Assembly: GCF_024223415.1 (NCBI RefSeq)
Contig: NZ_CP100500.1
Length of the DNA: 64,000 nt
Direction: 5' to 3' (one strand)
Source: Escherichia coli
GTDB taxonomy: Bacteria; Pseudomonadota; Gammaproteobacteria; Enterobacterales; Enterobacteriaceae
Part shown: piece after piece, positions 36,001-39,000 of the stretch
How positions within the stretch are numbered: the first letter of the stretch is position 1
How the letters are laid out: every line of letters begins with the position of its first letter
Position numbers: made by a program

Positions 36001-39000
36001 CCGTTACGCCAGGATCGTTGAACCTGGCACCGATCGCCATTGCCGATATGGATCAATCGCAGTTATCGAATCGGATCGTTAACAGCTTCTATCGCCCGTG
36101 GTTTTTGCCACCGGAGATGATCACCGCCGATGAGATGGATGCCGGACTGGACGCCGGACGCTATACCTTCGCGATAAATATTCCGCCTAATTTTCAGCGT
36201 GATGTCCTCGCTGGACGCCAGCCAGATATTCAGGTGAACGTCGATGCCACGCGCATGAGCCAGGCATTTACCGGTAACGGGTATATCCAGAATATTATCA
36301 ACGGTGAAGTGAACAGCTTTGTCGCGCGCTACCGTGATAATAGCGAGCCGTTGGTATCGCTGGAAACCCGGATGCGCTTTAACCCGAACCTCGATCCCGC
36401 GTGGTTTGGCGGGGTGATGGCGATCATCAACAACATTACTATGCTGGCGATTGTATTGACCGGATCGGCGCTGATCCGCGAGCGTGAACACGGCACGGTG
36501 GAACACTTACTGGTGATGCCGATAACGCCGTTTGAGATCATGATGGCGAAGGTCTGGTCGATGGGGCTAGTGGTGCTGGTGGTATCGGGATTATCGCTGG
36601 TGCTGATGGTGAAAGGCGTGCTGGGCGTACCGATTGAAGGCTCGATCCCGCTGTTTATGCTGGGCGTGGCGCTCAGTCTGTTTGCCACCACGTCAATCGG
36701 CATTTTTATGGGGACGATAGCGCGTTCAATGCCGCAACTGGGGCTGCTGGTGATTCTGGTGCTGCTGCCGCTACAAATGCTTTCCGGTGGTTCCACGCCG
36801 CGCGAAAGTATGCCGCAGATGGTGCAGGACATTATGCTGACCATGCCGACGACACACTTTGTTAGCCTCGCGCAGGCCATTCTCTACCGTGGTGCCGGAT
36901 TTGAAATCGTCTGGCCGCAGTTCCTGACGCTGATGGCAATTGGCGGCGCATTTTTCACCATCGCGCTGCTGCGATTCAGGAAGACGATTGGGACAATGGC
37001 GTAAGGAAGGGAAACTTGACTTCATACTGTAATGTCATACTATTGATGTCATAAAGTGAAGTCATAAGGACATGCCATGAGAACCAAGGTACAGGCTTTA
37101 CGGAAGAAACAAAAAAATACATTGGATCAAATATTTAAAACTCCTGTTCCTCAAGGGATCAAGTGGTCTGATATAGAGTCACTGGTTAAAGCATTAGGCG
37201 GAGAAATTAAGGAAGGAAGAGGTTCGCGTTGTAAGTTCATACTAAATATGAGCGTTGCGTGTTTCCATCGGCCTCATCCGTCGCCAGATACCGATAAAGG
37301 CGCTGTAGAAAGCGTGCGTGACTGGTTACTAAGTATAGGGGTAAAACCATGATCAAACTGAAGACGCCAAACTCTATGGAGATTGCCGGGCAACCTGCTG
37401 TTATCACTTACGTGCCAGAACTGAATGCATTTCGTGGCAAATTCCTGGGCTTGTCAGGTTATTGTGATTTTGTCTCTGACAGCATTCAGGGGCTGCAAAA
37501 AGAAGGGGAACTTTCCCTGCGAGAGTATCTTGAGGATTGTAAAGCTGCGGGTATTGAGCCGTATGCGCGTACAGAAAAGATTAAGACCTTTACGTTACGC
37601 TATCCAGAATCGCTGAGTGAACGCCTTAATAATGCGGCTGCGCAGCAACAAGTCTCTGTTAATACCTATATTATTGAAACACTGAATGAGCGTTTGAATC
37701 ATTTATAACTTATAGCGGCCCAACAATTTCTGTTGCGCCGCTATATTTTTGTGGCTCTTAAAATGCCTTTCTAACCAACCGATGCCCCTCATTCATCATC
37801 AGGATTTTGCTATACACATCTTCCTCGACGGCGTTTTTTGCTGATGCCATGACTCGTGCCAGATTCGCCTCGTTGTGATTATTCACATACGCTTTGCCGA
37901 CGGCGGTGATAAACGCTTTGCGCAGATCGCTGGCGATATTTACTTTAGCGACGCGATAATTAACAAAGCTGCGTAATATCTCCGGGGCGATACCGGAGCC
38001 GCCGTGAATAACCAACGGCACCGGACAGACTTCGGCAATGCGCTTCAGCAGGGGGATATCGATACGCGGTATATCGTCCAGGCCATGAACGTTGCCAATA
38101 GAAACTGCCAGCATGTCGCAACCGGTACGCTCGACAAAGGTCTTCACCTTTTCCGGTTCCGTTTTGCAATCGGCTTCGCTGACGTGATCATCTTCTTTGC
38201 CGAGAATCGCCCCCAGCTCCGCTTCAACCGGTACGCCATAGGATTTACAGAAATCGACAGCTTTCTGGGTGAAAGCGATATTCTCTTCAAAAGAGAATGC
38301 GGCACCGTCAATCATGACCGAGGTAAAGCCCGCGCGCACCGCCTGTTTAACATCCTCCTGGGTTTTCCCGTGATCCAGATGAAGACTGACCGGAACATCC
38401 ATTTTATCGGCGTGACGTTTCACGATTTCATAAATGTAATCGTATCCTGAGAGTTGTGCATTGGTTGGCGCAATCTGAATGAAGTTGGGTAATCCCGAAC
38501 GCTCAATAGCGTTTAAAATTGAAATTGTCGTCTCCAGATTGGTGGTATTAAATGCGCCCGCTAATACCCGTTTTTCCTGAATGCGGTCGAGCAGTATCCG
38601 TCCATTAACTAATGGCATATTGAAAACCTCATCTTTTAATATCAGTTAATTATTCAGCTTCACCGAAGCGGTCGCGAAATAAGTCGGTGAGAGTCTGTAT
38701 GGCCTCGTTTTCATCATCACCGTCGCAGCGTATTTCCACCGTTTTTCCGCCTTTTATTCCAGCGCGCATAATATTCATCATGCTGGTGGCATTAATATCA
38801 TTACCCTCATAGTGCAGCGTCACTTTACAGCTATATTTTTTGGCGGCTTTCGCCAGACAGGCCGCCGGACGTGCATGCAGGCCAGTACTGTTTCTGACCT
38901 CCACGGTTTTATTCAACATAGTGTTCCTCCCGATGATGTAATGGCATCACGCCTTCTTGTTGTAATTTCAACTGATACCAGCTTTTCCATTTGTGCTGAT

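What the first reader, a model, noticed from the sequence alone, without database searches (positions are those of the whole stretch)
37017..37708. HicA/HicB-like toxin-antitoxin pair with atypical toxin sequence between yhhJ and the sugar island
A 91-aa HicA-like ORF is followed, with a 4-nt ATGA overlap, by a 119-aa HicB-like antitoxin with an RHH C-terminus, preceded by an inverted-repeat operator. The putative toxin has a roughly 25-residue N-terminal extension and carries GSRC where HicA toxins usually have the GS-His catalytic region. It may be an inactive, altered-specificity or differently acting variant. It sits at the junction of two accessory segments, a typical addiction-module location.
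Basis: partly seen in the sequence, partly recalled or inferred. Interest (0 to 1): 0.4.

Follow-up and report, generated by a model that had tools for sequence, protein, structure and literature searches.

The report
Annotated HicAB toxin-antitoxin pair, His-to-Arg subclade
This is a real, already annotated HicA/HicB toxin-antitoxin gene pair carried by about 38% of complete E. coli genomes, and its odd toxin motif (Arg where studied HicA toxins have their catalytic His) marks a large, catalogued subfamily for which I found no experimental study.

Summary

The atypical features are also real. Arg51 aligns with the catalytic His of solved HicAs, and about 28 extra N-terminal residues form two confident helices. 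Neither is a local defect. Both define a clade of about 1000 clusters at 50% identity: G-S-R is kept in 145/150 representatives, and F-H-R-P-H-P has His64 in 147/150. This clade keeps an overlapping PF05534-type hicB across phyla, plasmids and phages.

Gerdes (2024) already lists this type as Class 4 hicAB, including a close Klebsiella homologue.

My best reading is a working type II module. HicB would repress through four TGAnnTCA boxes over the promoter, and the toxin would be an RNase whose imidazole has moved to the neighbouring strand (His64, predicted cross-strand partner of Arg51). That last step is inference.

Interest is low to moderate.

The parts
37016..37043 (+). Sigma-70-like promoter: -35 TTGACT (37016-37021), 16-nt spacer, -10 TACTAT (37038-37043)
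   Evidence: Consensus scan, 9/12 matches. This is a consensus match only. It overlaps the operator boxes. The -10 lies inside the 14 bp deleted in the C2-type allele.
37017..37064 (.). Putative HicB operator: TGAnnTCA boxes at 37017-37024 (TGACTTCA), 37030-37037 (TAATGTCA, degenerate), 37044-37051 (TGATGTCA) and 37057-37064 (TGAAGTCA), spaced 13/14/13 nt. The outer two form a perfect inverted repeat.
   Evidence: Three strict boxes lie in the 120 nt upstream, against 0.03 expected. The same motif occurs 3-4 times upstream of orthologues in four other enterobacterial genera, and at the same offsets (-60/-33/-20) in Citrobacter.
37066..37070 (+). Shine-Dalgarno sequence AAGGA for hicA
   Evidence: Read directly from the sequence; 6 nt before the ATG at 37077.
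37077..37352 (+). hicA-family toxin gene, 91 aa, of the G-S-R / F-H-R-P-H-P subclade. Extra N-terminal helices (residues 2-6 and 10-19) precede an alpha-beta-beta-beta-alpha core.
37349..37708 (+). hicB antitoxin gene, 119 aa. [quoted passage not shown]
37711..37752 (+). Terminator hairpin (37711-37745) followed by a T-run, directly after the hicB stop codon
   Evidence: RNA fold -21.2 kcal/mol, z = -6.0 against shuffles. Homology with island-free strains ends at about 37719, inside this hairpin.

Best explanation
[quoted passage not shown] It lies just after yhhJ in a variable spot of the E. coli chromosome.

The proposed mechanism has four steps.
1. A sigma-70 promoter at 37016-37043 drives both genes, and translation is coupled through the ATGA overlap.
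2. HicB binds HicA through its N-terminal HicB-fold domain and covers the exposed face of the toxin's beta-sheet.
3. HicB dimerises through its RHH domain and represses the operon at the four TGAnnTCA boxes that overlap the -35, the -10 and the leader.
4. Free HicA arrests growth by cutting RNA.

The toxin belongs to a large, strongly conserved HicA subclade. In it the catalytic His at the start of strand beta2 is Arg (Arg51). A His not seen in the solved HicAs examined (they have Thr) sits on strand beta3 (His64), predicted to be Arg51's direct cross-strand neighbour. An extra N-terminal helix pair is part of the domain. I propose that the imidazole has moved across the hairpin, so the protein is still an active nuclease.

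Shown here: gene structure, family and fold membership, clade-wide conservation, conserved pairing, conserved upstream boxes, and distribution.

Inferred, not shown: toxicity, RNase activity, the role of His64 and Arg51, HicB-DNA binding, and neutralisation.
For: Family and fold: for the toxin; for the antitoxin. RefSeq naming.

Clade-wide conservation:
- Arg51 is present in 106/106 close homologues.
- Among the best 150 representatives at 50% identity, Arg51 is in 145, His64 in 147, His67 in 146 and Gly49 in 148.
- The clade has 1017 clusters at E<=1e-10.

Purifying selection: dN is 0.087 for hicA and 0.133 for hicB against Citrobacter, while the synonymous estimate is undefined, consistent with saturation.

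Conserved pairing: a PF05534 hicB follows, with a 4-nt overlap in most loci, in distant taxa and in mobile settings (resolvase, IS91, prophage). There are 231 plasmid records and 51 phage records.

Operator boxes are conserved in four other genera.

Active-site argument: solved His-type HicAs (9svk, 6g26/4c26, 4p78) have His at position 51 and Thr at position 64, with identical 13-residue spacing. The model's strands 51-56 and 59-64 form a tight hairpin, which pairs residue 51 with residue 64.

Toxin-specific decay: about 787 E. coli genomes carry an allele that lacks the -10 and box 2 and reads ATG-TAA at the toxin start, yet encodes an identical HicB. A frameshifted 55-aa toxin allele is seen on 588 contigs.

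The same toxin domain, N-terminal helix included, forms the C-terminal tip of a 2052-aa haemagglutinin-repeat protein. That is a position typical of delivered toxin domains.
Against: - Nothing was found on growth inhibition, RNA cleavage, HicA-HicB binding or DNA binding for this pair or for any G-S-R-type HicA, either here or in the searched literature.
- The His shown to be essential in every characterised HicA is absent.
- The 51-64 contact is deduced from secondary-structure ranges, not measured in coordinates.
- Sequence similarity to solved HicAs is weak (best E = 0.077), and Foldseek E-values are above 0.1.
- No NCBIfam or PADLOC model matches.
- Loss of the toxin in 38% of carrier genomes could equally mean the module is dispensable.
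Confidence: 0.7

Rival explanations
1. A HicA-like protein that binds RNA but no longer cleaves it. Having lost the catalytic His, the clade would act by sequestering or blocking an RNA, or would serve a regulatory role with HicB, rather than as a nuclease.
For: The canonical catalytic His is replaced by Arg in essentially the whole clade. His to Ala at this position abolishes toxicity in characterised HicAs. The dsRBD-like fold is retained.
Against: A non-catalytic binder would not need two further near-invariant His residues (His64, His67) plus an invariant Gly-Ser-Arg turn. The tight pairing with a neutralising HicB and the mobile distribution are those of a harmful protein. Toxin-only inactivating alleles exist alongside intact hicB. 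The domain is also found at the tip of a haemagglutinin-repeat protein.
Confidence: 0.18
2. A nuclease with a different mode or target from studied HicAs. Examples are an Arg/His active site that needs the ribosome, or one that cuts tRNA or rRNA rather than free mRNA, with the extra N-terminal helices providing the new specificity.
For: The active-site residues are rearranged and a conserved 20-28-residue N-terminal helical addition is absent from solved HicAs. Pfam covers only residues 30-80. This is a sub-case of the best explanation rather than a true alternative.
Against: Nothing here bears on the substrate. The core fold and the HicB partner are ordinary.
Confidence: 0.3
3. A silent, decaying remnant in this strain: the genes are intact by chance but are no longer expressed or selected.
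For: About 38% of E. coli genomes that carry the locus have a start-less, promoter-deleted toxin allele. Frameshifted alleles are common. K-12 lacks the pair altogether.
Against: In the window the promoter, all four boxes, the Shine-Dalgarno sequence, both reading frames, the overlap and the terminator are intact. The allele is 99.6-100% identical in O157:H7 and many other strains. Comparison of E2348/69 with the window gives dN/dS 0.28 for hicA and 0 for hicB.
Confidence: 0.07

Closest known systems
Class 4 hicAB modules (hicA then hicB with a C-terminal RHH) in Gerdes 2024, mBio 15:e03293-23 (PMC10865869)
   Same: The gene order, the -4 overlap and the RHH-type HicB are the same. Table S1 of that paper lists G-S-R/H-R-P-H-P-type toxins. 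One is Klebsiella variicola PIA10432.1 (91 aa, GRGSRCKF...FHRPHPSPDTDKG) with a 119-aa HicB, a close homologue of this pair. The paper notes that Class 4 splits into two clusters.
   Different: The main text of that paper does not mention histidine (no hits for 'histidine' or 'His'). It does not comment on the His-to-Arg change, His64 or the N-terminal helices. It is a catalogue, with no experiments on this type.
Characterised RHH-type HicAB systems: Yersinia pestis HicA3/HicB3 (PDB 4P78), Burkholderia pseudomallei HicAB (6G26, 4C26), Streptococcus pneumoniae HicBA (5YRZ)
   Different: Those toxins are 58-66 aa with the essential His at the start of beta2 and Thr opposite it. This one is 91 aa with Arg and His at those two positions and two extra N-terminal helices. 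Sequence identity is only 16-18%.
E. coli K-12 HicA/HicB (PDB 6HPB)
   Different: K-12 HicB carries a helix-turn-helix domain, not an RHH. K-12 HicA has the catalytic His23. It is at a different chromosomal locus, and K-12-derived strains lack the pair studied here.

Membership tests
HicA toxin family (Pfam PF07927, dsRBD-like fold) | Sequence match to the family profile above the curated threshold | tested here: met
   37.7 bits against a gathering score of 27; residues 30-80 match profile positions 1-52 of 58.
HicA toxin family (Pfam PF07927, dsRBD-like fold) | alpha1-beta1-beta2-beta3-alpha2 fold | tested here: met
HicA toxin family (Pfam PF07927, dsRBD-like fold) | Gly-x-His at the beta1-beta2 turn, the His being essential for toxicity and RNase activity in all characterised members | tested here: not met
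   Gly49 and Ser50 are present, but Arg51 takes the place of the His. It is Arg in 145/150 clade representatives. I therefore file the protein as a homologue in a distinct subclade, not as a His-type HicA RNase.
HicA toxin family (Pfam PF07927, dsRBD-like fold) | Growth arrest on expression, and RNA cleavage | not testable with these tools
   Needs experiments. No report was found for this clade.
HicB antitoxin, RHH type (Pfam PF05534) | N-terminal HicB (partial RNase H-like) fold | tested here: met
HicB antitoxin, RHH type (Pfam PF05534) | C-terminal ribbon-helix-helix DNA-binding domain | tested here: met
   PF05534 scores 56.8 bits against a cut-off of 21 over residues 60-112. A profile search gives AmrZ (E 0.0067) and Arc (E 0.017) over residues 70-117. 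Helices are at 87-99 and 104-117.
HicB antitoxin, RHH type (Pfam PF05534) | Binds operator repeats in its own promoter | tested here: inconclusive
   Conserved TGAnnTCA boxes overlap the promoter here and in four other genera. Binding itself was not tested.
Type II toxin-antitoxin module | Two small, adjacent, co-oriented genes kept together across taxa, with a patchy and mobile distribution | tested here: met
   The pair is conserved in all nine distinct loci examined, with a 4-nt overlap in all but one. It is in 2070/5426 E. coli genomes. It occurs on plasmids and phages.
Type II toxin-antitoxin module | Direct protein-protein neutralisation of the toxin by the antitoxin | not testable with these tools

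The most novel reading that the evidence does not exclude
The G-S-R / F-H-R-P-H-P clade, to which this E. coli toxin belongs, would be a HicA lineage in which the catalytic His has moved from strand beta2 to the facing residue on beta3. Arg would take the old position and an added N-terminal helix pair would be part of the domain. This would give a nuclease with a rebuilt active site and possibly a different substrate or ribosome dependence. I found no report of this, although the clade has about 1000 clusters at 50% identity and is present in O157:H7.
Probability: 0.4. Interest if true: 0.4.

Novelty: already known. Interest (0 to 1): 0.25.

Why it matters
As a gene pair it is routine. RefSeq already names it, and a published catalogue already lists its type.

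What is left is a testable biochemical point. All mechanistic statements about HicA toxins rest on one essential histidine, yet a very large and widespread branch of the family lacks it and conserves a different His/Arg arrangement. That branch includes a copy in about 38% of complete E. coli genomes and in O157:H7.

A few point mutants (R51A, R51H, H64A, H67A) would show whether the active site has moved or whether these proteins act differently.

The locus also gives a tidy natural series for studying how such modules decay: intact, promoter-deleted with a start-less toxin, frameshifted toxin, and absent.

Tried and rejected
Searches that gave nothing or too little:
- NCBIfam and PADLOC scans of both proteins gave no match.
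- phmmer of the single toxin against PDB sequences gave nothing. A profile reached only one HicA, at E = 0.077.
- Literature searches by protein accession, by 'yhhJ', by second-hicAB names, by phrases about a missing catalytic residue, and by host genera found no study of this pair or clade.
- The O157:H7 expression paper that mentions hicAB gives no sign that it concerns this locus; it cites the K-12 HicA papers.
- The Serratia transposon study has two hicAB loci, but neither could be assigned to this clade from the text or the supplement.
- No HicB-like gene lies next to the haemagglutinin-repeat fusion protein.

Ideas rejected:
- GSRC is not a strain-specific degenerative mutation, because it is clade-wide.
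- The N-terminal extension is not a mis-called start. The Shine-Dalgarno sequence is correctly placed, the motif K-x-x-T-L-x-x-I-F-x-x-P is conserved, and the helices fold confidently.
- The inverted repeat is not mere chance, because the boxes are conserved across genera.

I ran no further search on a wider His/Thr against Arg/His tabulation.

Full report
WHAT IS THERE

The window carries two co-oriented ORFs just after the stop codon of yhhJ (37004). The first is 37077-37352 (91 aa, ATG start), preceded by AAGGA six bases upstream. The second is 37349-37708 (119 aa). Its ATG overlaps the first gene's TGA as ATGA. A strong hairpin at 37711-37745 (-21.2 kcal/mol, z = -6 against shuffles), followed by a T-run, ends the unit. 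A class II aldolase gene on the other strand starts the PTS/sugar island.

FAMILY ASSIGNMENT

- The 91-aa protein matches Pfam HicA_toxin at 37.7 bits (cut-off 27), over residues 30-80.
- The 119-aa protein matches Pfam HicB (PF05534) at 56.8 bits (cut-off 21), over residues 60-112. It also gives weak Arc/CopG matches.
- NCBIfam and PADLOC give nothing for either protein.
- Neither protein finds a solved structure by simple sequence search.
- A profile of the toxin clade reaches one HicA entry (9svk_A) at E = 0.077.
- A profile of the antitoxin reaches the RHH proteins AmrZ and Arc.

Structure prediction settles the folds.

- The toxin model (pLDDT 94.9) has helices at 2-6 and 10-19. These are followed by helix 30-39, strands 43-46, 51-56 and 59-64, and helix 74-86.
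- The antitoxin model (pLDDT 86) has a four-strand-plus-helix N-terminal domain and two C-terminal helices.

ALREADY ANNOTATED AND COMMON

- The 851-bp region is 99.6-100% identical in many complete E. coli genomes, including O157:H7. RefSeq names the genes 'type II toxin-antitoxin system HicA family toxin' (WP_001259385.1) and 'HicB family antitoxin' (WP_000593555.1).
- The pair is present in 2070 of 5426 genomes, always on the chromosome and always after yhhJ.
- The yhhJ-nikR gap is a variable spot. O157:H7 and this window have hicAB plus the PTS/aldolase island. E2348/69 and strain C2 have hicAB followed directly by nikR. The K-12 derivative TG1 has an ISEc1 transposase and RhsB instead.
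- Citrobacter has the pair at the same yhhJ-nikR position.

THE ATYPICAL TOXIN FEATURES ARE REAL AND CLADE-WIDE

The profile-to-structure alignment puts Arg51 opposite the His of 'RGSH' in 9svk_A. Alignments among solved HicAs (9svk, 6g26/4c26, 4p78) show G-S-H, then (V/I)-T-(V/L)-P-(H/Y)-P exactly 13 residues later. The window protein has G-S-R, then F-H-R-P-H-P with the same spacing. So canonical His51/Thr64 becomes Arg51/His64.

The published literature treats that His as essential in every characterised HicA: Yersinia His28, Burkholderia His24, pneumococcal His36, E. coli His23, Sinorhizobium His24, gonococcal His24 and Adephagia His31.

Conservation within the clade is as follows.

| Sample | Arg51 | His64 | His67 | Other |
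|---|---|---|---|---|
| 105 full-length homologues plus the query | 106/106 | 103/106 | 104/106 | - |
| Best 150 representatives at 50% identity | 145/150 | 147/150 | 146/150 | Gly49 148, Ser50 147, Trp30 142 |

An exhaustive profile search of 1.84 billion representatives finds 1017 clusters at E<=1e-10 and 2467 at E<=1e-3. One member, P0321, has His at both positions 51 and 64.

The N-terminal addition carries a conserved K-(K/R)-(Q/H)-x-x-T-L-x-x-I-F-x-x-P motif and is confidently folded. It is part of the domain and not a mis-called start.

THE MODULE IS CONSERVED AS A PAIR AND IS MOBILE

- In an Azospirillum-like assembly, other metagenomic contigs, Serratia, Xenorhabdus and Leminorella, the G-S-R-type hicA is always followed by a PF05534 hicB, with the 4-nt overlap in all but one locus.
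- The neighbourhoods are unrelated and include resolvase, IS91-type transposase, HNH/Vsr genes and prophage portal/terminase genes.
- tblastn finds the toxin type in 231 plasmid records (Piscirickettsia, Rhizobium, Sinorhizobium, Deinococcus and others) and 51 phage records (Burkholderia phage ST79, Ralstonia phages).
- Between E. coli and Citrobacter, dN is 0.087 (hicA) and 0.133 (hicB), while the synonymous estimate is undefined, consistent with saturation.

OPERATOR

On its own it is not significant. It is part of four TGAnnTCA-like boxes at 37017, 37030 (degenerate), 37044 and 37057, spaced 13/14/13 nt. These cover a promoter-like -35 TTGACT and -10 TACTAT and the leader.

Three strict boxes fall in the 120 nt before the ATG, against 17 in the whole 64 kb. 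Citrobacter has boxes at the same offsets. Serratia, Xenorhabdus and Leminorella each have three or four. This is good comparative support for a HicB operator, but binding is untested.

HINTS THAT THE TOXIN IS HARMFUL

- About 787 E. coli genomes carry the 'C2-type' allele. It has a 14-bp deletion (window 37030-37043) that removes box 2 and the -10, and the toxin start reads ATG-TAA. No ordinary in-frame start gives more than 34 codons. Yet its HicB is identical (WP_000593555.1).
- About 1280 genomes carry the window-type allele.
- A frameshifted 55-aa toxin (P0094) is seen on 588 contigs, and several other truncated versions exist.
- The complete toxin domain, N-terminal helix included, also forms the C-terminus of a 2052-aa protein with a haemagglutinin repeat on one metagenomic contig. 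No HicB-like gene lies beside it.

MECHANISM PROPOSED

The pair most likely works as an ordinary RHH-type hicAB module: autorepression at the boxes, coupled translation, neutralisation by HicB's N-terminal domain, and RNA cleavage by free HicA.

The new element is the active site. The model's strands 51-56 and 59-64 are joined by a two-residue turn. This pairs residue 51 with residue 64 and places Arg51, Lys53 and His64 on one face, with Cys52, Phe54, Leu56 and Phe63 on the other, core-facing side. The clade therefore seems to keep an imidazole within one cross-strand step of its canonical place and to add a guanidinium.

I rate the module identity at about 0.9, an active toxin at about 0.65 and the relocated-His idea at about 0.4.

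COMPARISON WITH WHAT IS KNOWN

Gerdes's 2024 survey defines Class 4 as hicAB with an RHH HicB and notes that Class 4 toxins fall into two clusters. Its Table S1 lists many G-S-R/H-R-P-H-P toxins. One is Klebsiella variicola PIA10432.1 (91 aa) with a -4 overlap and a 119-aa HicB, a close homologue of this pair. That paper's main text does not mention histidine. The 2024 HicAB review describes the His as conserved in the systems it covers.

I found no experiment on any member of this clade in the searched library. Subscription-only papers, including Makarova et al. 2006, were not searchable.

VERDICT

The finding is a correct identification of an already annotated and catalogued TA pair. The residual interest is a cheap, well-defined mutagenesis question about HicA catalysis.

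Noticed in passing
window 37030-37043 and 37077-37082; L002 2580-2620: About 787 complete E. coli genomes carry an allele with a 14-bp deletion that removes operator box 2 and the -10 hexamer, and the toxin start reads ATG-TAA. Its hicB encodes the identical protein. PGAP still annotates a 76-aa 'HicA' there, starting at a CTG codon. The 5' half of hicA in this allele has many substitutions relative to the window, whereas the 3' half shown in the alignment is identical. 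That suggests a recombination breakpoint inside hicA.
   Followed up: partly
L017 3001-9159 (protein P0344): A 2052-aa protein with a filamentous-haemagglutinin repeat ends in a complete G-S-R-type HicA domain, including the N-terminal helix motif. This resembles a delivered polymorphic toxin. No HicB-like gene is nearby; the next genes are a 90-aa unknown and a YafQ/ParE-like toxin. It is a single metagenomic contig.
   Followed up: partly
protein P0313 (337 aa), no locus fetched: A G-S-R-type HicA domain is fused to an N-terminal region of about 250 residues that has no Pfam match.
   Followed up: no
protein P0321 (124 aa): A clade member with His at both position 51 (GSH) and position 64, and Tyr at position 67. 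It may be an intermediate between the His-type and Arg-type active sites.
   Followed up: no
window 37004-37758 and loci L001-L004, L012: The yhhJ-nikR gap is a hypervariable spot. It holds hicAB alone (E2348/69, C2, Citrobacter), hicAB plus a seven-gene PTS/aldolase/FGGY-kinase/GntR island (this window, O157:H7), or ISEc1 plus RhsB (the K-12 derivative TG1). Homology between island-bearing and island-free strains ends at about 37719, inside the hicB terminator hairpin.
   Followed up: partly
proteins P0052, P0055, P0058, P0077: Several public records name members of this toxin clade 'hexulose-6-phosphate synthase'. This looks like a propagated misannotation.
   Followed up: no
window 37444-37458: A weak terminator-like hairpin (5-bp stem followed by a T-rich run) lies about 95 nt inside hicB. 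About one such site is expected by chance in the region. A 2025 NAR paper describes an internal terminator that tunes the toxin:antitoxin ratio in a plasmid hicAB operon.
   Followed up: no
window 37073-37080: A two-codon mini-ORF (ATG CCA TGA) ends in a TGA that overlaps the hicA ATG. The upstream sequences of Citrobacter, Serratia, Xenorhabdus and Leminorella do not show it, so it is probably chance.
   Followed up: partly
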